Notes under the pieces: model-generated | Told to the model about the DNA's origin: nothing | The model's database searches: none | What the model saw: only the letters and a program-made list of their open reading frames with translations | In this document: positions 22,302 to 34,700 of the stretch, piece by piece | Layout: every line of letters starts with the position of its first letter | Position numbering within the stretch: the first letter of the stretch is position 1 | Program-made: the position numbers and the translations under genes | DNA from: Prorocentrum cordatum | Taxonomy: Eukaryota | Assembly (NCBI GenBank): GCA_963575745.1 | Contig: CAUYUJ010000103.1 | Coordinates: 620,001-669,881, forward strand | Reading direction: 5' to 3' | DNA: 49,881 bases

Positions 22302-23141
22302 TTGAGTCGGGCCTGTCGTCCTCCTCCTCCTCCTCCTCCTCCCTCCTCCTCCTCCTCCTCCTCCTCCTAATCCTCCTCCTCTCTTCCTCCCTCCTCCTCC
22401 TCCTCCTCCTCCTCCTCCTCCTCCTCCTCCTCCCTCCTCCTCCTCCTCCTCCTCCTCCTCCTCCTCCTCCTCCTCCTCCTCCTCTCCTCCTCCTCCCTCC
22501 TCCCTCCTCCTCCTCCTCCTCCTCCTCCTCCTCCTCCTCCTCTCCTCCTCCTCCTCCTCCTCCTCCTCCTCCTCCTCCTCCTCCTCCTCCTCCTCCTCCT
22601 CCTCCTCCTCCTCCTCCTCCTCCTCCTCCTCCCTCCTCCTGCTTCTCCTCCTCCTCCTCCCTCCTTCTCCTCCTCCTCTCCTCCTCCTCCTCCTCCTCCT
22701 CCTCCTCCTCCTCCTCCTCCTCCTCCTCCCTCCTCCTCCTCCTCCTCCTCCTCCTCCTCCTCCTCCACCTCCTCCTCCTCCTCCTCCTCCTCCTCCTCCT
22801 CCTCCCTCCTCCTCCTCCTCCTCCTCCTCCTCCTCCTCCTCCCTCCTCCTCCTCCTCCTCCTCCTCCTCCTCCTCCTCCTCCTCCTCCTCCTCCTCCTCC
22901 TCCTCCTCCTCCTTCCTCCTCCTCCCTCCTCCTCCTCCTCCTCCTCCTCCTCCTCCTCCTCCTCCTCCTCCTCCTCCTCCTCCTCCTCCTCCTCCTCCTC
23001 CTCCTCCTCCTCCTCCTCCTCCTCCTCCTCCTCCTCTACGGGGACGATGCGTTGATTCTTTTGTGGGCTATTCTGACGCATCTTGGGGGTATTTTTAGTG
23101 TTCCGCTCAAAATCCGCCTGTAGGGGGCACGCCCGGCGTAA
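22302..23141. mobile_element. MITE family A copy with ~720 bp (CCT)n tract inside its left TIR
   Basis: ttgagtcgggcctgtc...[CCT]n...ctctacg and right TIR tgtagggggcacgcccggcgtaa; TSD ctccagag/ctctagag (1 mismatch). Confidence 0.8.
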
Positions 23142-24307
23142 CTCTAGAGGGCTGGCGCCTTGTGAGGAGCAGCCTCCTCAGAATTGAGCAGGGGCCGACC
23201 GTCCCGGCCCCGGCATTCCTACAGGCCTGCACATTGTTCGCTTCTAAGTCTTCGAAAGTTCTTTGATTCTTAGGGGGGTCAAGATCCTTTCATTTCTAAT
23301 TGTTCTATATTGGGCCTCTTCCTGGCCTCTAGGGGGCCAGGAACAATTAGAAACGAGCACAATTCGAAATGAGCACGATTGGAAATGAACGACGTGTACC
23401 ACGACATGTTCTTAGAACCCTTGAATGTTCCAGTAACAAGAACGATGCTCTCATAACGTAAACCTCATGCATTGAAGCAGCAAGACGCCCTCGGCCTCAA
23501 ACACGTTCCACAGAGCACTCCGCGGAAGCCACAGACGGTTCCCAGAACATGTTCTGGGCCGGCCTATAGGCCAGCCAGGACGCCTCGTCACTGCTCGACA
23601 GAGCCCTTCCCCCCTTCCCCGGGCCCCCCTCTGCGCGCTGCCGATCACTCTGGCGTGTCGCCGAGGGGGCGGGCAGAGTGGAGCCAGCGCTCCGGCCCGC
23701 GGCCGCAGAGCTGCTCGTCGGGCGCGCCGGAGTCCTGGCTGGGTCGGGGCCCCCAGTGGCGGGGCCCTCGCGGCCTCGGATCCGGGCCGGCCATCTCGGG
23801 CCATGCTGCAGGGAGGAGGAGGAGGAGGAGGAGGAGGAGGAGGAGGAGGAGGAGGAGGAGGAGGAGGAGGAAGAGGAGGAGGAGGAGGAGGAGGAGGAAG
23901 AGGTTTGTTTGGCTTTTGGGTTTTTTGTTTCTGGTGTTCTTGGGTTTTTCGTTCGCCCCTCGCCTGGATGCCACGCGCGTGGGCCCTCTTCAGACGAAGG
24001 GCAATGACAAGACACGGATGCAGATACGGCGGAGGAGCAGGGAGGAGGAGGAGGAGGAGGAGGAGGAGGAGGAGGAGGAGGAGGAGGAGATAAGATAAGA
24101 TAAGACCCTGGGGCGCCGATCCCTCCCTGCACTGCTATGCAAGCCCTCGCTCACAACCACACATGCTGCAAAAAAGAAGGGCGCCTGGGTTCGCCATGTT
24201 GGCGGACTGGAAACGTAGCCACCGCGCTGCCCCACAGCCACGACGGCGTGGGGACTGGCCCGATGGCGGACCCGACGGCACGCAGCCTGCGGCTGCCATC
24301 ATAGGCG

Positions 24308-27300
24308 CTAACCTCGGGCACCTCTGCCTGAAGTTGCGCCTCGCTCTGATCCTGCGCCTCTGCCCCGACGATTTCGAGATCGGGGTGGGAGCTGGATTGC
24401 TGGACCTACCTCTGGGGCAGTTGGGAAGTAGACGGGAGCGGGGGAGGACGTAACGAGGCCAGGGGGCGGCGGGAGGGAGGAAGGGGAAATCACGCTAGGG
24501 AGACTATTATCAGTCAAACCTGAAACTCTCCTGCTAGCATCTTCACTCAGGAGCCCTGCCCTCAGAAGCTGCTGCGCACGCTCACTGTTGGCCCAGCTGA
24601 AACCTCTCGAGCCCCCTACTTGCATTGGTCTAGCAGGCGCTGGGCCTCCCTTACCAAGACCCCGCGCGGGGCTGCCCCCACGGTCTTCTCTCCTCCCTCG
24701 GCCTTGAGGCAGTGGCGGATCGCCGAGAGCAGCTGGTTGCCGCGCTCGCTGGTGTCCAGAAGGAACTGCACCTTTGCCATCTCCTTGTCGTCCTTGCCCT
24801 TTGTTTTGAGACGCTTCGCCTTGCAGTACCTCACCACCTCGCTCAGCACCACTGGGTCCTCCGCTGCCATCACCGTCGACTCCCAGTACTGCGCCGCCGC
24901 CGACTGCTCCTTGGGCAGCTGCCCTGCAGCCTCCTCGAACGCCGCCCCCTTGATCAATGCCGCGAACGCCCTCAGGTGGGGGGCGTGCATCTTCACCCTC
25001 GTGAACTCCTTGCCCTCCTTCTCCGCTGCCTTCTGGAGCTCGCGTTGCTGCTGGGCCTCTGCATTGAAGCTCTGGCCCTCCTCGAGCATGAACTGCACCG
25101 TGCGACTGTCGAGCGGCAACAACCAAGTGTCGTACACCGCGCCGATGAGCGCTCGCAGCTCCGCCTCGTCGTTGAGCACCAACTTTGCCAAAACGATGAC
25201 GAGCTCGTCCAGGTTCTGCTTCTTTCCGCCACGCTGTGCCCCATGACGAGCTTCTTGCGCGCCTCCCCCTGCTGGCCCGACGATGCGACGCATCTTGCCA
25301 CTGCCCTCGTCGGTGTTGCGCGTCATCCACTTGGGGACCGCCGCCGTCGTGTTCGGCATGGCTGGGGAGGTCGACTGGCCCCGACCGTGGAGCAGCCCGA
25401 GCTCGCTGCACTCGCAGCTGCAGAACACTGGAACGTGTAGCTACAGTATCAAGAACTCGAGGAAGATGACCACGGATGTGTTGCTGAAAATCATCTGTGT
25501 CCGATGCGTGATATTCACAAAGGGGGCAAGCCAGGTCAGTAATTTGAGACCGAGTAGCCTGAGACTTTCCACCCCCAGCAATACAGTAACCCCTGTTCAT
25601 GGAGCCCACGAGGTGCCTGCTAGCCGTGATCACCCCCGAGAAGATCCCCTGACAGTTTGGGCACTCGTTAGTACGACATAGAACATGCCCCAATGAACGA
25701 TAATGATGATGGAATCGTAAGTGGTTTAGCGCAGACTTCTTATCGGGGAACTTCGCATCGCATCGAACTCGACGACCAATAGTATCGCTAGGATCGCATC
25801 TATGTTCATAAACACCACAGACCCATTTCACAGCACCACCCTGGACGATCTCAGTAGATAACATAGCACTAAGTTGAGGATCATACTCTGGAGGAGGAAT
25901 CGCTACAGTATGAAGACGTCGTCGTAGGAGAGAGAAATCAATCTTACATAATGCTTTTCCAAGCTCCTTATCCCACCAAAGTGCGAGAAACGAGCCCTGC
26001 AGACGTTCGAGCAACTCTCGACCGTCCTCAATATCCTCCAGTGCCTGTACATCTTCAAAGAACTGCTTCGCCCAGGGGTTCGCATAGGCGGCGAGACGAC
26101 CCATGTCATCGTACTGCGGACGATCGTCCACCTCCAATTCAGCAAAAAGAGCTGCCAGAATCTGAGCGTGCCGCCCAGGATAACGGATGAACTGCACGAG
26201 CCACCCCAAACGACGGACCCTGAGCTCGATGAAGGCAGGCGTGATACGCCAGTGATTGAGCACCTGCTCATTGCTGAGACTCAGAACATGTGTAGTGCCC
26301 TCATAACTAGCCCCTCTCATAGCCACTCTACAATATCTTACCATAAGAGAATCCAACTTCTTACATAACCCCTCCGTCACCAAGTAAGCCTCCAAATTCT
26401 GAACCCCCGCGTTCTGGACACCCAACAAGACCGAGCGTTTCAGCCGAAACGAAATGCCAGGAGTCGACCAGAATCTTCCCAACGAATGAAACGAACTTTT
26501 TATCGCGTTCAGGCGCTTGTTAACCTCTGGAGTGATCGAGCCCATGGAATGAATCTCCCCGCCCAGTACCCTCATAGACGGACTGACTCCTCCTTCAAAC
26601 AGTTCAGACGCAGAGGCTCGCAATCGACGATTCGCAGCGACAGAGCCCTGGCCAGAGAGACAGACGATGGTGTTCTGCTTGCTCCTGTTCTGCGCCCATC
26701 CCCCTATCTTCAGAACCTCATCCAAGACTTGATTGGAGTAAAAGTTGGCGGCAGAAAGCTCTGCCAAGCCCGCGTCACCACACGAGGCCTCAGGACCACC
26801 GCCTACGTGCAGCTTCGTGAGACCGTCGGCATACTTAGTCAGAGACAAATCTACAACCATGCCTGTAATCGGACAAGTGGCTGCAAGAAGCGCCTCCGAA
26901 GGCATCTGGGCATACAACACCTCACTCCATTCGCATACAGGAATCTCATAGGCTCTGCCAAAGCTCTCCACCGCGTAAGGATCACCCATGAGAGCTCCGC
27001 ATCTAGGCTTTACAACAAGTGTACGAGCACGGGCAGGAAGACATATCGAAGCCGATTCGAATCGGTCGCGTCCAAACTGACGGTCAGGAAAATCTAAAAG
27101 AGCAGAGTTCGCTTCCTCCAGGAGACTCCAAGACGTACTCGGGAAAGCGTTGCTAAGGTCCTTGTTTGACCACGTAAAACTGTACCCTCCCCGTCGCAAA
27201 CGATGAGAAACCAACATCATCACCAGCATGGCCCCCTCCTTACGCCTCCCCTTGCAGAACCCATAGTCGTTGGGACCTAGCGCAACTGGATTGTTCCTAC

Positions 27301-29191
27301 GAATGGCCCCAGCTAACCAAGCCTTGCCCAGCGGGTCCAGCAGGTGGATGACTCGTTTCCCCTTGGGGCCAGGGGTGGCACTCTTCGGTAAGGCGCAGCC
27401 AAAACTCCTATTCCACAAGGCAGGGAACCTGTTCGCAAGACGGATACACTGCAAACCACGAGTTAGTGCCTCCTGCAGCGGTTCAGGTTGAAACTCGACG
27501 GAGTATCCAACTCCTGAGAAACTCTTAGAAAGTCCAAAAACAGGGTCCGCGATCATGCCCCAGATCTCTGCTGGTACACTCCACGGCGGGCACGATCGGC
27601 GTTTGGGTGCATGACGCAAATACTTAGTAATAGATAACATATCCGTAGTAGCCTCCACATTGAACATGCCCAGGTACCCGTTCACCCCCTCCTCCAGCTC
27701 CTCCCCCTCCTGGTTGATCTCGATAACCTGCATGCCTCCCTGTGGTCCCTCCTTCTCCCAGACCTCAAGCCACTCCTTAGCACTTAGTGAAGCACCCTCA
27801 AGATGGCGATAACTGCGACCACGGGGTCCACGACCCTTGCAGGCGAGAACTCGGATCAAGCGATGGGCTTCTTTGTGATTTCTCTTCCGCCAAGCCTCCT
27901 CCAACTCCTCCGTAATGTTCTCCCTCCACTCCTTGAACTGCTGTTTCCTCTGCTGCTGACACTGCTTGCTAATAACTTTGAGCTGCTGAACCACTTCCTC
28001 CTCCTCCTCATCGCAACCAGCTCGGGCGAGGCGACGGCGAATCTCCAATCGCCTTTGCAGAAGAGCCTTGCGCTCCCTGGCCTGCACGCGGTAGGCCTCG
28101 GACGCGTTGGGCAACGATCCACAGAAAAATAAACTAGCCTGCTCGCGCACAAGATCATTCAAGATAGCAAAATACGCATCTGGCTTTCCAGCCGTAGCCG
28201 CCGAGGACAGCTCGGGCTCACGTTCTTGCAACTTGGCATTCGCCCGAATGAGGAAGTTCTCGCGCACCGAGGCATTCTTCATGGTGTCAAAGTTCCAATA
28301 AAGACGGTTCCTCCCCAGCTGCTCGGGCTCAACAAAAGACCACTTCAGATTACAATGCAGCGGTATGTGGTCACGCGGATGACGGGAGGGTATACGTTGA
28401 TGCTGCCTCATGACCCTCATCAGCGGACCAGCTGTGTTAATCAGGTTCTGGGCGACGACTGGACCGAAGATGTAGTCCACCCTGCTGGAAATACCGTCCT
28501 GGCCGAACCACGTGTCCTCCACTCGGTCGCGCACCCCCAGCACCACAAAACCGAACTCCTCCATCAATTCTCGTACTAACTGACCAGCCCCTCCCACAAG
28601 ATTCTCACGAGTGGCCAGGTGCGATGGAATAACAGTAGTGTCGTAGCTCTGCCACCTTCCTTCAGAACAAACAATGCCAATGCCGTCGTTCAAATCCATA
28701 CTTATCAATGGCATGGTACGTGATGATCGAGCTATGTCAACTAAGAGACCGCGGAGCCACGAGACCAGCCTGTTCGTCGCAGCGAAATAATGCGGGCGGC
28801 CAGCTCGTCCCCGCGGTCGGGGAGGAAAATAAACTCCAGCCACTGTCAAATCCAAACCAGTTCGCTTCAGGCGAAGTCCAAAAGCACGGCCAGCAATCTC
28901 GGGAGGTGCTTGCCATTGCCTCACTATATGGTGCTCACGCAGCCCCGAACTGATCGTAATACTAATACCAGCCGACTTATTTGTGTACGCCCCAGGACTC
29001 CACCCAGCCTCAATGAGCAGTGTATTGTGCAGCTTGCGTTTCTGAACAGCCATTCCAGGAAGTGCCCTCACCTGCGTACCTATGAAAACGCACGCGTGGA
29101 AGCTCTTGGCGGTCGCCATGATTATTTCCTCCTGACGATCTCTAGAATTCATACTCAATGGATTCCAGTGCAGAAATCGAAGCAAAGACAT
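24308..29191 (-). CDS. LINE polyprotein: AP-endonuclease + reverse transcriptase + C-terminal C2H2-like zinc fingers (1627 aa; last ~370 aa are probably a shadow of the nested ORF)
   Basis: APE motifs: FLHWN, GVYFPP, MDLND, TW..SRVDYIF, RDHIPL. RT motifs: RVIHLLD, YGFCKGR, KDLSNAFPS, GALMGDP, KYADG, NRSK, LGG. Zinc-finger-like segments at ~25470-25820: CxxxF...HLRFHH, CPNC...RH...C, CPLC...HIRGH. Confidence 0.92.
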   Translation of the reverse strand: MSLLRFLHWNPLSMNSRDRQEEIIMATAKSFHACVFIGTQVRALPGMAVQKRKLHNTLLIEAGWSPGAYTNKSAGISITISSGLREHHIVRQWQAPPEIAGRAFGLRLKRTGLDLTVAGVYFPPRPRGRAGRPHYFAATNRLVSWLRGLLVDIARSSRTMPLISMDLNDGIGIVCSEGRWQSYDTTVIPSHLATRENLVGGAGQLVRELMEEFGFVVLGVRDRVEDTWFGQDGISSRVDYIFGPVVAQNLINTAGPLMRVMRQHQRIPSRHPRDHIPLHCNLKWSFVEPEQLGRNRLYWNFDTMKNASVRENFLIRANAKLQEREPELSSAATAGKPDAYFAILNDLVREQASLFFCGSLPNASEAYRVQARERKALLQRRLEIRRRLARAGCDEEEEEVVQQLKVISKQCQQQRKQQFKEWRENITEELEEAWRKRNHKEAHRLIRVLACKGRGPRGRSYRHLEGASLSAKEWLEVWEKEGPQGGMQVIEINQEGEELEEGVNGYLGMFNVEATTDMLSITKYLRHAPKRRSCPPWSVPAEIWGMIADPVFGLSKSFSGVGYSVEFQPEPLQEALTRGLQCIRLANRFPALWNRSFGCALPKSATPGPKGKRVIHLLDPLGKAWLAGAIRRNNPVALGPNDYGFCKGRRKEGAMLVMMLVSHRLRRGGYSFTWSNKDLSNAFPSTSWSLLEEANSALLDFPDRQFGRDRFESASICLPARARTLVVKPRCGALMGDPYAVESFGRAYEIPVCEWSEVLYAQMPSEALLAATCPITGMVVDLSLTKYADGLTKLHVGGGPEASCGDAGLAELSAANFYSNQVLDEVLKIGGWAQNRSKQNTIVCLSGQGSVAANRRLRASASELFEGGVSPSMRVLGGEIHSMGSITPEVNKRLNAIKSSFHSLGRFWSTPGISFRLKRSVLLGVQNAGVQNLEAYLVTEGLCKKLDSLMVRYCRVAMRGASYEGTTHVLSLSNEQVLNHWRITPAFIELRVRRLGWLVQFIRYPGRHAQILAALFAELEVDDRPQYDDMGRLAAYANPWAKQFFEDVQALEDIEDGRELLERLQGSFLALWWDKELGKALCKIDFSLLRRRLHTVAIPPPEYDPQLSAMLSTEIVQGGAVKWVCGVYEHRCDPSDTIGRRVRCDAKFPDKKSALNHLRFHHHYRSLGHVLCRTNECPNCQGIFSGVITASRHLVGSMNRGYCIAGGGKSQATRSQITDLACPLCEYHASDTDDFQQHIRGHLPRVLDTVATRSSVLQLRVQRARAAPRSGPVDLPSHAEHDGGGPQVDDAQHRRGQWQDASHRRASRGRRARSSSWGTAWRKEAEPGRARHRFGKVGAQRRGGAASAHRRGVRHLVVAARQSHGAVHARGGPELQCRGPAATRAPEGSGEGGQGVHEGEDARPPPEGVRGIDQGGGVRGGCRAAAQGAVGGGAVLGVDGDGSGGPSGAERGGEVLQGEASQNKGQGRQGDGKGAVPSGHQRARQPAALGDPPLPQGRGRREDRGGSPARGLGKGGPAPARPMQVGGSRGFSWANSERAQQLLRAGLLSEDASRRVSGLTDNSLPSVISPSSLPPPPGLVTSSPAPVYFPTAPEVGPAIQLPPRSRNRRGRGAGSERGATSGRGARG
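24616..25359 (-). CDS. Uncharacterised 247-aa helical protein nested in the 3' part of the LINE pol ORF (same strand, different frame)
   Basis: ATG at 25359 (MPNTT...), TAG at 24616. Strong GC3 codon bias and natural protein composition (LVIVLAKLVLNDEAELRAL, QQQRELQKAAEKEGKE, GAAPRGVLVREAQRLL), whereas the overlapping pol frame reads as R/G/A-rich junk. Confidence 0.78.
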   Translation of the reverse strand: MPNTTAAVPKWMTRNTDEGSGKMRRIVGPAGGGAQEARHGAQRGGKKQNLDELVIVLAKLVLNDEAELRALIGAVYDTWLLPLDSRTVQFMLEEGQSFNAEAQQQRELQKAAEKEGKEFTRVKMHAPHLRAFAALIKGAAFEEAAGQLPKEQSAAAQYWESTVMAAEDPVVLSEVVRYCKAKRLKTKGKDDKEMAKVQFLLDTSERGNQLLSAIRHCLKAEGGEKTVGAAPRGVLVREAQRLLDQCK

Positions 29192-31284
29192 CGGCTAGCC
29201 GCGGCGGCTCTCCAACCGAAACCGCCCGCTGCTCAAGATTCGGTGAACGGAGTGTGTGGGTATGAAACATATGGAAGGTGGGAAGCGAGAGAGGGTGCAC
29301 TCGCGCCACCTGGAGGAGGAGGAGGAGGAGGAGGAGGAGGAGGAGGAAGAGGAGGGCAGAAGAAGGAACGAACCGAGGAAGGAAGGGGAGACGGGAAGAG
29401 AGCGGTTCCATTTCAAACCCTTTGAGGGCCGAATGCGCCCCACCCCCATCCAGTCTGGTGCTCCTCCCTCCCCCCACGGGCGAACTCGTGGGGAAAATCC
29501 GTTGGCTTTTTTCAAGCCCACCCACCCTGCGGCCGGCGCGCCTCGCGGATTCGCCAGGAATGAGGGTGGTACATTGGGTCGCCCCTCTTGTCGTGCTGCG
29601 AATGTGGATTCCGGGTGAGTTTACAAAACGCGATCGATCCCGAGGCCTCTGGAAGAGTCACGCGGGCGAGACAAGCAGCACCCGAGAGTGCCCAGGAGAG
29701 CGCAGAACAGGCCTGCGCCCGGTGAGAGCACCGCAGTATTGAACACAGAGAGCCAGTGGGACCCGAGGGCACTCCACTCAGTGCCTACGGCACGGTGCCA
29801 GATTAAGGATGAGGGATGGAGGAGCAAGAGGATGAGGAAGAGCAGGAGGCGGACGAGGAGGAGAAGCAGCAGGCGAGAGGAGGAGGACGAGGAAGAGGAG
29901 GAGGAGGAGGAGGAGGAGGAGGAGGAGGAGGAGAAGCAGCTGGCGAGACGAGGAGGAGGAGGAGGAGGAAGAGGAGGACGAGGAGGAGGAGGAGGAGGGG
30001 GGTCCTGGGATGGAGCGCGAGCGGGAGCAATGGGTGAGAGCGAGGAGGAGCAGGGTTTGGTGCGGCCTGGCCAACCCTCCACTCCTCCTCCTCTTCCTCC
30101 TCGAACTCAAACTCAAACTCACACTCCTCCTCCTCCTCCTCCTCCTCCTCCTCCTCCTCCTCCTCCTCCTCCTCCTCCTCCTCCTCCTCCTCCTCCTCCT
30201 CCTCCTCCTCCTCCTCCTCCTCCTCCTGCCCCGGACGGTGCTCCGTCGAGCGCCTCGGGGCGGGTGCGGCTGGGGCGATGGGAGCGCCCCGAGAGGCCCA
30301 ATGCCGTGAGCCCCAGGGCTCTCTGGACCCCAACCGGCGGAGCCCAGGAGAAAGCCAAAGAACGCAGGCATATGGAGGAGGAGGAGGAGGAGGAGGAGGA
30401 GGAGGAGAAGGAGTAGGAGGAGTGTGTGAGTTTGGTTTGAGTTTGAGGAGGAGGAGGAGGAGGAGGAGGAGGAGGAGGAATTTGAGCTTGACTTCGAGTT
30501 TGAGGAGGAGGATGAGGAGGAGGATTGGAGGAGTGAGTGCGAGGAGGAGGAGGAGGAGGAGGAGGAGGTGGAAGAGTGTAAGGAGGAGGAGCTTGAGGGG
30601 GAGACGAACATCCAGAAAATATGAACAGATGAGAAATGCTGGAATATGTGTCTCTTTGTTTGTGTGCCCCTGGGTCCCTTCATGAGAGCCAGACGATCAG
30701 GGTACGTTCTAGGCCGAGATTACTGGCGATACGCATGGAAGTCGTAATGGGCAACCTTCCTGGCCGCGACCCTCCCTACATTTGTCTGGTCGTCCAGGTT
30801 TGGGGATATCCCCATTTTCTAATGGCTCCTGCTGGCCTCTTGATTCCTCTGGAGGCTGAGAACATCCGAACTCATGCAGAAACATCACGAAACCTCGACC
30901 ATCCTCGACAAGCCTTCACCCTCGATTCTCGATCCCGAAACCCTGTCCCCCCGATACCTCGATCCCGCACCCTCGATGCTGATGCAGGAGAGGGGCGCGG
31001 CTGAATCCCCGATCCCCGCACCTCGACCCTCGATCCTGAAACTCTTCCTTACCAGAAGCATCCAGAGTACGGTGGGGGCGCGCATCAAGAAACCATCTGC
31101 TTTCCGTCAGGGTATCCTGGGTTTCTTCGCTCCGCGAGCTGCGCGGCGACTTCCCGCAGCCGCTGAAGAAGTGGCTGCGTTCAGGATGCTCTGGGTTTCC
31201 CCTCAGGTACCCCTCGCGCATGGGTTTTCAGGGTTGGATTTCTTGCGAGGGTTTCTTGCGGCCGCCCTCGCACTGTACTCCCGC

Positions 31285-32039: not shown

Positions 32040-34700
32040 GTCAGAGGAGGAGATGTGCTTTCCTCCCCCCCGTCCTCCTCTTCCTCCTCCTCCTCCTCCT
32101 CCTCCTCCTCCGCCTCCTCCTCCTCCTCCTCCGCCTCCTCCTCCTCCTCCTCCTCCTCCTCCTCCTCCTCTTGATCCACTCAGCTAGCGCAGCGTTTCAC
32201 CCTCCATGTCGCCTCGCTGCTTGAGACTGTGTTCCTGCCCACGGGCCGGACGGCGTGTGGCTTGTGAGTGAGTGAGTACCTGATACCCTTGCCTCGTTTC
32301 GGAAGCCTTGGGACGGGGGTCAATGCAAACGGGGTCCGCCAGAGCGCCAGATCTTGCAGGATCCTGCAGAGCCAGGGTTGCCTTGGCCCGGGCTTGCGTG
32401 TAGGATCTTGCAGGATCCTGCAGGATCTGGCAGGATCCTTCGAAGCCTGACTGACCCGGGTTTACGGGATGCTGCGGGCCCGTAGATCCCCGATCGTGGT
32501 CTCCCTTTGGAGCCTCCTGGGAGGCCTTCGCCCGCCACCGCTGGATTCGCCTCGAGATCTTGGCCGCGAGCGCACCCTTAAGGAGAGGTCCGGAGAGTAG
32601 CGGCCTTGGTATTTGCTGGTCCCGTGCATGGACAATGAGCTCGAGCCCTGCAGCGCAAGATGCCCTCCCAGGCCCCACAAAGTGATGTTGAGGGTGCAGC
32701 GCCAGAGGGGGCTTGGATGGGCAAAGCAATCGAACCCCCAAACCATCACCGATGCTAAAACCAGCGTTGATTTCGGGGGCTGGGGGGTACTGAACATCCC
32801 CCTCAAGTGTGTGAGGGTTCGAATATGTTGTCCACGCACTGTCCCCCCCGCAGGGATCCCCCGCAGCGCCACCCCCAGCGCCCCCGGCGGCTGTGGGCGG
32901 CGGCCCAGCAGGCACCGACCAGGTCGCCATGAGGGAAACGGGTCCTGAGAGGAACGGGTCCTGCGGTTTCTGTCGCTGTTTTTCTGGCCTCGCGGGGCCC
33001 TCCACGCGCCCTGGTAGTGTCAGAATACGACTCGGGATGATGCACCGGTCCTGGGGGAAGGCCCTGGGGTCCAGGACTCGTTTCCCTCGGGGCCCGCTCC
33101 CTTCTCATGCTGGCCAGGCCACCATGGATCTCCTGACCCACGTCATGCAGCAGCTGGGGCAGCGGGAGGGCCACGTGCTCCTCCTGAGCGACCTCGGGGC
33201 GCTGCTCCCTCCGGACCTGCGCAGTCACGTGAAGGAGCGCGGCGGCCTCCGCAGCACGCTCCAGCGGTTCGGCCAGCTCTTCTCGGTCACCGGCAATCCT
33301 GGCAAGGAGTGCGTGCAGCTGGACTTCCGCATACGCGGTGGTCTGGCACCAGCGACCGGGCTCGCCGCATCTGGGACCGGCACTGCCGCATCGTCGCCAG
33401 CTGCGCGGATCGCGGCTGGAGGTGCTCCCGTCGGCCAACGTCAAGTCGGGCACGTCCCTCTACAGGAGGAGTATTCCAAAATTTTCAAGAATAGTCTGGG
33501 GACGATTTTTCATAGTATTTCTGACTACCTTTGAATATTTTTGGGGTTATTTTTCTTCTTTCATCTAGGGGGACACGCCCGACCTGAGGCCAACGCGACG
33601 AGAGCGATGGCGACGACTCGGCGCTGCAGCTGCGCGGGCTGCCCTACCGCGCGACCGCGGGGGACGTGCGGGCCTTCCTCGGCCGCCACGCGAAGAACCT
33701 GCAGGACGACGCAGGCGGCCAGTCCATCACCCTGGTGATGAACCGCGAGGGGCGCCCGTCGGGCTTCGCCAACGTGCGGCTCAGCTCGCCCCAGGCGGCC
33801 CGGGCCGCGCGGGACGAGCTGCACAACAGGCTGATGGAGGTAGCGCCGGACGATGCTGGCCCGAGGGCCACCGCGACAAAGGCGAACCGCTACGTGGAGG
33901 TGTTCCTGTTCTCGGAGCGTCCGAGCAAGCCGCGCTCCAAGAAGGATAAGGCGGTCGACATGCTCGCGGAGCAGTCCGCCGAGCCAGGCGTTTGCGGCAT
34001 CACCGCGGAGCAGGTGTACGCCGAGTGCTGCGCCTACATGTCAACTCCAGGCCGGGGGCAGCTGCTCCTCAGCATGCTGGGCGTGGCCTTGTCGCCAGCC
34101 GCTCGGAGCTACCTCAAGAGGACCGACCAGGGCCTCAAGCAGTTCTTGCTGAAGCATCCGCAGGTGCTCGCGGTGGAGGGCGCGAAGGGGCGCGAGAGCA
34201 TCACGTACCTCCCGACCATGCCCACCCAGTGCAGCGAGCTCAGATACGAGATGGACGGCCACAGCGCGATGGCAGCCTTTCTGCAGGAGTCCGAGCTGGG
34301 AGTTTGTCCATGGCCGCCGCCTGATCGGTCGATCTTCGGGGACCTCGGCAGGCGGTGGACATGGACATGTTCGGGCCGGGGGGGCGGGGAATCTGTGATT
34401 CCCGGGTCGAGGGTTCACTGCCCCCGCCCCTGATGAGATGGGCCCTAGGGTTCCACAGCCCCCCCCCAACCCCCAGATAGGATGGGGGGGCGACGACGAC
34501 GCAGACGCCGACGCCGACGCCAACGCCGAATGACGCCGACGCCGACGCCGCCGACGACGACGACGATGACGACGACGGCGACGCAGAGACAGACGCAGAT
34601 GCAGAGGCCGACGCCGACGACGCCGACGCCGGAAGACGACGACGGAGGCCGACGCCGACGACACCGCCGCCGCCGCCGCCGACGACGACGATGACGACGA

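What the first reader, a model, noticed from the sequence alone, without database searches (positions are those of the whole stretch)
24616..29191. LINE with reversed gene order: no ORF1 upstream, but an unknown 247-aa ORF nested downstream of RT/zinc fingers
Seen: the APE-RT ORF begins ~120 nt from the element 5' end. About 110 nt after the last zinc finger a second ATG (25359) opens a GC3-biased, helical/coiled-coil-like ORF in another frame, which ends well inside the element ahead of the 3' tail. The pol frame probably stays open across it because its codons start on the G/C third positions of the nested ORF. Known: in characterised two-ORF LINEs (L1, Jockey, CR1, I) the accessory ORF1 precedes pol. 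Inference: this is an element-encoded accessory protein (an ORF1-like RNA chaperone or targeting factor) in an atypical position, expressed by frameshift, reinitiation or internal SL trans-splicing. I do not recognise the family, so it may define an undescribed retroelement architecture.
Basis: partly seen in the sequence, partly recalled or inferred. Interest (0 to 1): 0.85.

Follow-up and report, generated by a model that had tools for sequence, protein, structure and literature searches.

The report
LINE with accessory gene nested inside pol
A dinoflagellate jumping gene (a LINE retrotransposon) carries a second, conserved protein gene of unknown fold hidden in another reading frame inside the tail of its polymerase gene, an arrangement seen again in two distant relatives and resembling the gene nesting of hepatitis B virus more than any described LINE.

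Summary
On the minus strand a pol frame runs from ATG 29191 to TAG 24310-24308. It has endonuclease-like and RT-like motifs and three C2H2 fingers. A 247-aa ORF (ORFx, 25359-24616) lies 107 nt after the last finger, in the +1 frame.

ORFx is a genuine gene of the element:
- It has 154 representative relatives, mostly 200-290 aa, usually with a Met just upstream of a conserved N-terminal W/F.
- 8 of 10 listed copy-to-copy differences inside it are synonymous in its frame.
- Two metagenome contigs (L001, L002) with only 25% ORFx identity show the same order: pol C-terminus, three fingers, ORFx at +1.

In L001 and L002 zero stops across ORFx is far beyond chance (p 0.0004 and 0.0022 under a conservative null). 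The frame also stays open about 100 codons past the ORFx stop. ORFx is therefore nested inside a stop-free pol extension.

The ORFx model is confident (pLDDT 87.7) but matches no solved or viral structure. Its function (RNA-binding partner, inferred) and its mode of expression are untested. The window copy itself has a mutated RT catalytic box (YADG where other copies have YADD).

The parts
29312..29355 (.). (GGA)n microsatellite flanking the 5' end of the insertion; likely target and duplicated flank
   Evidence: TRF; the repeat finder family D1, with copies on both sides 5232 nt apart
29192..29311 (-). 5' UTR of the element (120 nt)
   Evidence: Lies between the microsatellite and the pol ATG. 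Logan depth is almost nil here (0.64), so it is present in few copies
24308..29191 (-). pol ORF, ATG 29191 to TAG 24310-24308 (1627 codons), including the stop-free C-terminal extension
   Evidence: 22 of 29 listed differences from 25376 to 28991 are synonymous in this frame
28355..29173 (-). endonuclease-like (EEP/APE) region at the N-terminus of pol
   Evidence: Motif positions. phmmer alignment to the C-terminal catalytic motif of PDE12, E 0.11. No Pfam hit
26552..27355 (-). RT-like core (motifs 1-7 by reading)
   Evidence: Motif positions. No profile hit. Gene model P0004 carries the same stretch with YADD
26822..26833 (-). RT catalytic box, YADG in this copy. All 13 Logan contigs that cover 26823 read Asp (YADD)
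   Evidence: table 3 (26823 C>T in 10 of 10 X1, 2 of 2 X2 and 1 of 1 X4 contigs)
25466..25762 (-). three C2H2-like zinc fingers at the conserved C-terminus of pol
   Evidence: Weak Pfam zf-C2H2 hits. All three fingers align with L001 and L002
24616..25359 (-). ORFx, 247 aa plus stop, +1 frame relative to pol, entirely nested in the pol ORF
24311..25375 (-). pol-frame extension: low-complexity G/R-rich, sequence unconstrained but kept free of stops
   Evidence: 8 of 10 listed differences are nonsynonymous in this frame. Shuffle tests. No conservation among the three loci
24106..24307 (-). 3' UTR after the pol stop. Other copies lose likeness at 24180
   Evidence: Loose ends at 24180 in X1 (2) and X4 (1), table 7; sequence
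24091..24105 (-). short tandem tail, three 5-nt units, at the 3' end of the insertion; no poly(A)
   Evidence: Read directly; abuts the flanking microsatellite
24031..24089 (.). (GGA)n microsatellite flanking the 3' end

Best explanation
This is one full-length copy, about 5.2 kb (29311-24091, minus strand), of a divergent single-pol LINE. Its closest relatives are in the dinoflagellate Prorocentrum cordatum. It is inserted in a (GGA)n microsatellite.

Shown:
- The pol ORF (endonuclease-like, RT-like, three C2H2 fingers) does not stop after the fingers. It runs on for about 370 codons.
- Nested in the +1 frame of that extension is ORFx. It is a conserved, basic protein of about 27 kDa with a start codon of its own.
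- The ORFx frame carries the amino-acid constraint. In the pol frame only the absence of stop codons is maintained.

Inferred:
- Full-length RNA is translated into pol with a disordered G/R-rich tail that ends about 200 nt before the RNA 3' end. This leaves the genomic RNA without a long 3' UTR and brings the ribosome and nascent pol close to the 3' end, where reverse transcription starts.
- ORFx is made separately from its own AUG, which has a purine at -3 in all three loci. The likely template is a 3'-coterminal subgenomic RNA, made by spliced-leader trans-splicing or an internal promoter, or transcripts of the many 5'-truncated copies.
- ORFx acts as the element's nucleic-acid-binding RNP partner, taking the role that ORF1p has elsewhere. 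It has a K/R/G-rich disordered N-terminal stretch, a long helical hairpin and a ferredoxin-like alpha/beta core.

The window copy itself is probably dead, because its RT box reads YADG.
For: Linkage and order:
- L001 and L002 have a pol C-terminus and three fingers homologous to the window's, followed by ORFx at frame offset +1 in all three.
- ORFx identity is 25% (window vs L001), 25% (window vs L002) and 33% (L001 vs L002). L002's ORFx is 100% identical to representative P0062.
- A 476-nt Logan contig spans 25144-25619 with 15 differences and 0 gaps.
- P0009 and P0004 join pol pieces to ORFx.

Real gene:
- 154 representatives at E<=1e-3. 138 of 148 start with M.
- 66 of 70 aligned rows have a Met within 14 residues upstream of the conserved W/F, against 30% of control windows.
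- The AF2 model has pLDDT 87.7 and pTM 0.78.

Selection:
- Inside ORFx, 8 of 10 listed differences are synonymous in the ORFx frame and 2 of 10 in the pol frame.
- Upstream, 22 of 29 are synonymous in the pol frame.

Pol frame kept open:
- There are 0 stops across ORFx.
- Synonymous-shuffle p is 0.036 (window), 0 of 5000 (L001, mean 11.3 stops) and 0.0002 (L002, mean 7.3).
- The junction-preserving null gives p 0.15, 0.0004 and 0.0022.
- The frame stays open 101, 97 and at least 35 codons past the ORFx stop, while the other two frames have 2-8 stops.

Protein properties: median family pI is 9.2. The N-terminal linker is 20% K+R and 15% G.

Background: trans-splicing of multi-gene transcripts in dinoflagellates (PMC11453091, passages).
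Against: - There is no RNA or protein evidence. No RNA run was listed, so separate initiation, a subgenomic RNA and translation of the pol tail are all inferred.
- Pol is not recognised as RT or EEP by any profile library.
- Only three DNA loci could be examined. One (L001) has a frameshift in pol near its 5' end.
- The window's own openness test is weak (p 0.036, or 0.15 under the conservative null).
- The substitution counts use the 40 best-supported of 750 differences.
- Two 5'-partial representatives, P0129 and P0069, carry the end of the last finger in the same frame as ORFx.
- ORFx GC3 exceeds pol GC3 in all three loci, which could point to a separate origin.
- No structural or sequence match supports RNA binding.
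Confidence: 0.68

Rival explanations
1. ORFx is made as the C-terminal domain of pol. This would happen either through a programmed +1 ribosomal frameshift just upstream of 25359, or because functional master copies are in frame and the copies seen here carry an indel.
For: There is no pol stop before ORFx. The constraint switches frame between 25376 and 25366. P0129 and P0069 have the last-finger motif and ORFx in one frame. The ORFx stop would give pol a normal terminator.
Against: - The +1 offset is the same in three loci with 25-33% ORFx identity and in a gapless 97%-alike contig, so it is not a private indel.
- A Met lies just upstream of the conserved W/F in 66 of 70 rows.
- The distance from the finger to the AUG varies: 32 codons in the window and 8 in L001. 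The junctions share nothing beyond the CAT-G that holds the AUG.
- The one listed variant at 25366 removes the only candidate slip codon.
- Selection to keep the zero frame open is pointless if ribosomes leave it.
- P0129 has a frameshifted C-terminus, so it is a decayed copy.
Confidence: 0.12
2. ORFx is a real downstream gene, but pol ends functionally near 25376. The open pol frame beyond it is a compositional by-product, and the tail is meaningless.
For: The window copy alone gives p 0.036, or 0.15 with the junction-preserving null. The tail is low-complexity and not conserved among loci. 8 of 10 listed differences are nonsynonymous in it.
Against: L001 and L002 have ORFx GC3 of only 0.64 and 0.70, with 38 and 29 T-ending codons, yet 0 stops where 11.3 and 7.3 are expected (p <= 0.0002; 0.0004 and 0.0022 under the conservative null). 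The pol frame is also the only open frame for 97-101 codons after the ORFx stop.
Confidence: 0.1
3. ORFx is mainly a host (dinoflagellate) gene family. The LINE-linked copies result from capture of a host mRNA by one LINE lineage, or from site-specific insertion of the LINE in front of ORFx genes.
For: ORFx has host-like GC3: 0.85, while P. cordatum coding sequences average 65.9% G+C (PMC10666404, passage). Most of the 154 representatives are stand-alone gene models. Only 3 of 155 proteins showed pol-like pieces by BLASTP at E <= 0.001. Genomic context is unknown for all but three loci.
Against: Linkage, order and frame offset are identical at 25% ORFx identity. Both distant family members for which DNA could be fetched were nested in pol, 2 of 2. 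Pol has no stop or 3' UTR of its own ahead of ORFx. Gene-model pipelines remove recognisable TE parts (PMC10666404, methods passage), which would leave ORFx looking solitary.
Confidence: 0.08

Closest known systems
APE-type non-LTR retrotransposons with a single pol ORF (general LINE plan; recalled examples RTE, L1-like protist elements)
   Same: N-terminal endonuclease-like region, then an RT-like core with a YxDD box, then a Cys/His region. No LTRs. Many 5'-truncated copies. Short tandem-repeat 3' tail.
   Different: Pol is too divergent for Pfam RVT_1 or Exo_endo_phos. Pol has three C2H2 fingers and a stop-free extension of about 370 codons that holds a second gene in the +1 frame. There is no ORF1 upstream in this copy.
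SymbioLINE-Dnmt of Symbiodinium (PMC5890265; passages read)
   Same: Dinoflagellate LINEs with an unusual accessory gene, TSDs and no poly(A) tail.
   Different: There the accessory ORF (a DNMT) lies upstream of the RT ORF as ORF1, and the pol domains are recognised by Pfam. Here the accessory ORF is downstream and nested, and has no known domain.
L1-type ORF1p (coiled coil, RRM and CTD RNA chaperone; PMC5940361, abstract seen in listing)
   Same: Works-like resemblance only: a basic protein with a disordered charged N-terminus, long helices and an alpha/beta core of beta-alpha-beta-beta-alpha-beta order.
   Different: No sequence or significant structural match. It is placed after pol, not before. 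Its oligomeric state is unknown.
Hepadnavirus P/S overlap (envelope gene nested in another frame of the polymerase spacer; recalled, not read here)
   Same: A reverse-transcribing element in which a complete second gene lies in another frame of a tolerant, disordered part of the polymerase ORF. That gene is expressed, in the virus, from a subgenomic RNA.
   Different: Different element class and unrelated proteins. Here the tolerant region is a C-terminal extension rather than an internal spacer.
ORF3 of bdelloid LTR retrotransposons and Athena/Terminon Penelope-like elements (PMC5408684; passages read)
   Same: Extra ORFs placed downstream of pol, some coiled-coil, captured and shared among retroelements.
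   Different: Those are LTR and Penelope-like elements with separate, non-nested ORF3s. None of my searches showed the same in a LINE.

Membership tests
Non-LTR (LINE) retrotransposon, APE type | Reverse transcriptase domain with the catalytic YxDD box | tested here: inconclusive
   No RVT profile hit at E<=10 and no PDB hit. The single-sequence AF2 model was unusable (pLDDT 30). By reading, seven motifs stand in the expected order (motif definitions recalled; positions). All 13 other copies covering the box read YADD, and the window reads YADG.
Non-LTR (LINE) retrotransposon, APE type | N-terminal apurinic-like (EEP) endonuclease | tested here: inconclusive
   No Pfam hit. Borderline phmmer alignment of pol 236-285 to the C-terminal catalytic motif of the EEP enzyme PDE12, E 0.11.
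Non-LTR (LINE) retrotransposon, APE type | No terminal repeats; dispersed multicopy with 5' truncation | tested here: met
   Only the flanking microsatellite repeats, and there is no second copy in the window. 279 Logan contigs of X1 lie on it. Summed depth is lower over 27923-29140 (9-20) than over 24617-27226 (12-76; 26-76 apart from the junction bin 25313-25486) and drops outside. Depth is not a copy number.
Non-LTR (LINE) retrotransposon, APE type | Target-site duplication | tested here: inconclusive
   No unique TSD. Both flanks are (GGA)n arrays, which could be the duplicated target.
Two-ORF LINE with ORF1 upstream (L1, I, Jockey, CR1 plan) | Accessory ORF precedes pol | tested here: not met
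   The pol ATG lies 120 nt from the 5' flank with no coding ORF upstream. ORFx lies downstream in all three DNA loci.
L1 ORF1p / Transposase_22 family | Sequence or fold similarity to ORF1p (coiled coil, RRM, CTD) | tested here: inconclusive
   No Pfam or PDB sequence hit. Foldseek finds nothing at E<=0.001. VIA gives Z<=6.4 on the hairpin only and Z 3.5-4.5 on ferredoxin-like domains.
Overlapping (nested) gene pair | Both frames kept open beyond chance, with constraint in at least one | tested here: met
   Shuffle tests; substitution pattern; conserved +1 offset in 3 of 3 loci.

The most novel reading that the evidence does not exclude
A whole clade of protist LINEs has replaced the upstream ORF1 with a new-fold RNP protein. 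Its gene is nested, hepadnavirus-style, in the +1 frame of a pol extension. Selection keeps that extension free of stops so that ribosomes run almost to the RNA 3' end, which would avoid a long 3' UTR and decay or deliver RT in cis. ORFx is expressed from spliced-leader trans-spliced subgenomic RNA and from the mass of 5'-truncated copies. That would explain why it appears as a large 'orphan' gene family in dinoflagellate annotations.
Probability: 0.3. Interest if true: 0.85.

Novelty: new variant of a known kind. Interest (0 to 1): 0.72.

Why it matters
LINEs are usually described as having ORF1 before pol, or pol alone. A conserved gene nested in another frame of a stop-free pol extension would be a new coding strategy for non-LTR elements. 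It would also be a rare eukaryotic case of a long, selected gene overlap outside viruses.

It assigns a large orphan protein family (154 representative clusters, confident fold, no match in PDB or BFVD) to a mobile element. That affects gene counts and 'dark' gene families in dinoflagellate genomes. It also gives a concrete system for asking how a 3' cistron is expressed in organisms that use spliced-leader trans-splicing.

Tried and rejected
- Own-genome search: no genome is held.
- Earlier findings of this scan: four look-ups, nothing.
- RNA evidence: no RNA holder was listed for the stretch.
- Pol homologues of 687-2188 aa: none at E<=0.001.
- ESM Atlas: no usable hit for P0005 or P0015.
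- The search for related loci: A2 was too diverse. A3 found none in metagenome contigs. A4 found none in viral contigs.
- Pfam, NCBIfam, PADLOC and PHROGs on pol pieces and ORFx: nothing beyond weak C2H2.
- tblastn of the RT region on plasmids: no match.
- The AF2 model of the RT region from a single sequence had pLDDT 30 and was not searched.
- ORFx self-association job: no verdict.
- Spliced-leader relic upstream of ORFx (motif recalled): 0 matches with up to 3 mismatches. A shorter core matched at chance level and not near ORFx.
- Unique TSD search: none.
- P0135, which carries ORFx after a 470-aa N-terminal region: no Pfam, PHROGs or PDB hit.
- Considered and dropped: reinitiation after pol termination (no stop upstream of ORFx), and transcriptional slippage (no long homopolymer at the junction).
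Full report
WHAT IS THERE. On the minus strand one frame is open from 29194 to 24308 (1628 aa stop to stop). Its first ATG is at 29191 and its stop is TAG at 24310-24308. A second ORF, here ORFx, starts at ATG 25359 and ends at TAG 24618-24616, giving 247 aa. It begins 107 nt after the last zinc finger (finger 3 ends at 25466) and lies in the +1 frame relative to pol. ORFx GC3 is 0.85 against 0.555 for pol. The pol frame has no stop across ORFx, while the third frame has 9.

The insertion is bracketed by (GGA)n arrays at 29312-29355 and 24031-24089, 5232 nt apart. The 3' end carries three 5-nt tandem units (24105-24091) and no poly(A). No second copy and no terminal repeats exist in the window. 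I found no unique target-site duplication; the microsatellite itself may be the duplicated target.

IS POL A LINE POL? No profile library recognises it. Pfam, NCBIfam, PADLOC and PHROGs give no RT or endonuclease hit even at E 10. PDB sequence searches give nothing for the RT part. A single-sequence AF2 model was useless (pLDDT 30).

What supports the label:
- A borderline phmmer alignment (E 0.11) places pol 236-285 on the C-terminal catalytic motif of the EEP nuclease PDE12.
- Seven RT-like motifs stand in the usual order (positions; the motif definitions are recalled, not tested).
- The catalytic box reads YADG in the window. All 13 Logan contigs that cover position 26823 read Asp there, giving YADD (10 of 10 in X1, 2 of 2 in X2, 1 of 1 in X4). 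Gene model P0004 also has YADD.
- 22 of 29 listed copy-to-copy differences between 25376 and 28991 are synonymous in the pol frame.
- 279 contigs of run X1 lie on the element. Summed depth is lower over the 5' third and drops outside 24617-29140. Depth is not a copy number.

I therefore accept 'divergent APE-type LINE' as the best reading, but mark the two domain tests as inconclusive. The window copy, with YADG, is probably inactive.

IS ORFx A REAL GENE? Its nearest relatives are six unnamed proteins, five of them from Prorocentrum cordatum, at 42-55% identity (6 hits among 1979 candidates). A full HMMER pass over 1.84 billion representatives found 154 at E<=1e-3 and 39 at E<=1e-10, mostly 200-290 aa with the match running to their C-termini. 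138 of 148 start with Met.

In an alignment of 104 members, 70 have W or F at the column of W11. Of these 70, 66 have a Met within the 14 residues upstream, against 30% of control windows. 40 of them simply start there. Of the other 30, which have longer N-termini or lack a Met start, 26 have an internal Met at that place. The start codon is therefore conserved.

Among the differences that read laying listed (the 40 best supported of 750), 10 fall inside ORFx. 8 are synonymous in the ORFx frame and only 2 in the pol frame. The switch of constrained frame lies between 25376 and 25366.

AF2 on the 104-row alignment gives a confident model (pLDDT 87.7, pTM 0.78). It has a disordered N-terminal 45 residues, a long helical hairpin (45-75 and 86-115) and an alpha/beta core in beta-alpha-beta-beta-alpha-beta order. 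None of the searches gives a convincing match:
- Foldseek on PDB: best E 0.17.
- Foldseek on BFVD: best E 0.058.
- VIA-align over 48,161 chains: best Z 6.4 over 49-64 residues of the hairpin.
- Second look at Foldseek's top chains: Wzz Z 6.1 over 46 residues, and ferredoxin-like domains at Z 3.5-4.5.

Pfam and a PDB profile search are also blank. The family is basic (median pI 9.2) with a K/R/G-rich N-terminal linker.

IS ORFx PART OF THE ELEMENT? Yes.
(a) A 476-nt Logan contig spans 25144-25619 with 15 differences and no gap. A 204-nt contig of another study spans 25346-25549 with 12 differences and no gap. The frame offset is therefore not a private indel.
(b) Gene models P0009 (952 aa) and P0004 (387 aa) string pol pieces of this family before ORFx.
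(c) P0129 and P0069, both 5'-partial, begin with the end of finger 3 and continue into ORFx.
(d) Decisive: a pattern scan of JGI metagenome contigs with 16 distant family members returned two loci (74 pattern matches, 2 confirmed). Both have a pol C-terminus homologous to the window's, including all three fingers, followed by ORFx in the +1 frame (offset 1 in 3 of 3 loci).

In those two loci ORFx identity to the window is only 25%, and 33% between them. L002's ORFx is identical to representative P0062, and L001's is 55% identical to P0113. So 2 of 2 distant family members for which I could obtain DNA are nested behind pol. L001 has a frameshift in pol near its 5' end, so it is not fully intact.

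THE POL FRAME IS KEPT OPEN. For the window alone that cannot be excluded: 3.6% of 5000 synonymous shuffles have no stop, and 15% under a null that also preserves the base pair across each codon boundary.

L001 and L002 have ORFx GC3 of only 0.64 and 0.70, with 38 and 29 T-ending codons. Shuffles expect 11.3 and 7.3 pol-frame stops, and none is present (0 of 5000 and 0.0002; conservative null 0.0004 and 0.0022).

The pol frame also remains the only open frame for 101, 97 and at least 35 codons after the ORFx stop, where the other frames have 2-8 stops (mononucleotide-shuffle p 0.049, 0.0098 and 0.17). The pol-frame peptide there is G/R/S-rich, unconserved among the three loci, and changes freely between copies.

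ORFx is therefore nested inside a stop-free C-terminal extension of pol. In that extension the absence of stops is selected, but the residues are not.

HOW IT LIKELY WORKS (inferred). Full-length RNA yields pol with a disordered tail that ends about 200 nt before the 3' end. Keeping that frame open would spare the genomic RNA a 1.2-kb 3' UTR, a recalled trigger of mRNA decay. It would also bring the translating ribosome and nascent RT to the 3' end, where target-primed reverse transcription starts.

ORFx most likely initiates at its own AUG. The start codon is conserved, and all three loci have a purine at -3 (G at +4 in L001 and L002). Since it lies 3.8 kb into the RNA, a 3'-coterminal subgenomic RNA is the simplest route. 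Dinoflagellates resolve multi-gene transcripts by spliced-leader trans-splicing (PMC11453091, passages), and AG dinucleotides precede the AUG. I have no RNA data, and I found no leader relic in the DNA. 5'-truncated copies would also retain ORFx.

By its charge, disordered basic N-terminus, long helices and alpha/beta core, ORFx is most plausibly the nucleic-acid-binding RNP partner of pol. That is a guess at about one in three.

RIVALS.
- A pol-ORFx fusion by +1 frameshifting, or in-frame masters, is suggested by the missing stop and by P0129 and P0069. Against it stand the conserved Met, the variable finger-to-AUG distance (32 and 8 codons), the lack of a shared slip site, the selected openness of the zero frame, and the decayed state of P0129.
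- 'Open frame is a by-product' fails in L001 and L002.
- 'Captured or targeted host gene' is contradicted by identical order and offset at 25% identity.

KNOWN OR NEW. SymbioLINE-Dnmt elements of Symbiodinium carry their extra gene upstream as ORF1 (PMC5890265, passages). Downstream ORF3s are described for bdelloid LTR and Penelope-like elements (PMC5408684, passages). Five full-text searches returned no LINE with a gene downstream of, or nested in, pol. This is not proof of absence: subscription literature and Repbase reports are not covered. The nearest working analogy is the hepadnavirus envelope gene nested in the polymerase spacer (recalled). I rate it a new variant of a known kind.

Noticed in passing
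window 26822-26833: The RT catalytic box reads YADG in this copy only. Every Logan contig covering 26823 (13 of 13) reads Asp. This otherwise intact copy is therefore probably a dead one.
   Followed up: yes
window 24106-24180: Other copies lose likeness at 24180 and continue with T-rich letters. The window copy has about 75 more bases before its own tandem tail at 24105-24091. This may be a short 3' transduction or a variant 3' end.
   Followed up: partly
window 22503-23036, 23812-23903, 24031-24089, 29312-29355, 29818-30591: The neighbourhood is packed with (GGA)n/(CCT)n microsatellites, one of 176 units. The element sits inside one, which may reflect a target preference of its endonuclease or just their abundance.
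   Followed up: no
window 27575-27748: Logan depth in run X1 spikes to 235 in this one bin, against 20-75 in its neighbours. Some sub-fragment of pol is far more abundant than the rest. Unexplained.
   Followed up: no
protein P0135 (714 aa): One family member carries ORFx after a 470-aa N-terminal region with a Walker-A-like motif and no Pfam, PHROGs or PDB match. It may be a chimeric gene model or a second kind of carrier for ORFx.
   Followed up: partly
protein P0008: A 151-aa ORFx fragment labelled Pyramimonas sp. in EukProt looks nearly identical by eye to the ORFx part of the P. cordatum gene model P0009 (sequences; identity not computed). This looks like a cross-contaminated or mislabelled data set. 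If that set is a transcriptome, it hints that ORFx is transcribed.
   Followed up: no
L001 about 100-135: The pol frame of L001 shifts from frame 3 to frame 1 here (homology to the window's pol continues across the shift), while ORFx and the pol tail downstream are intact.
   Followed up: partly
window 33588-34430 (+): A 281-aa open frame whose start looks RRM-like by eye (recalled motif). Pfam gives no hit at E<=0.01, so this is unconfirmed.
   Followed up: partly
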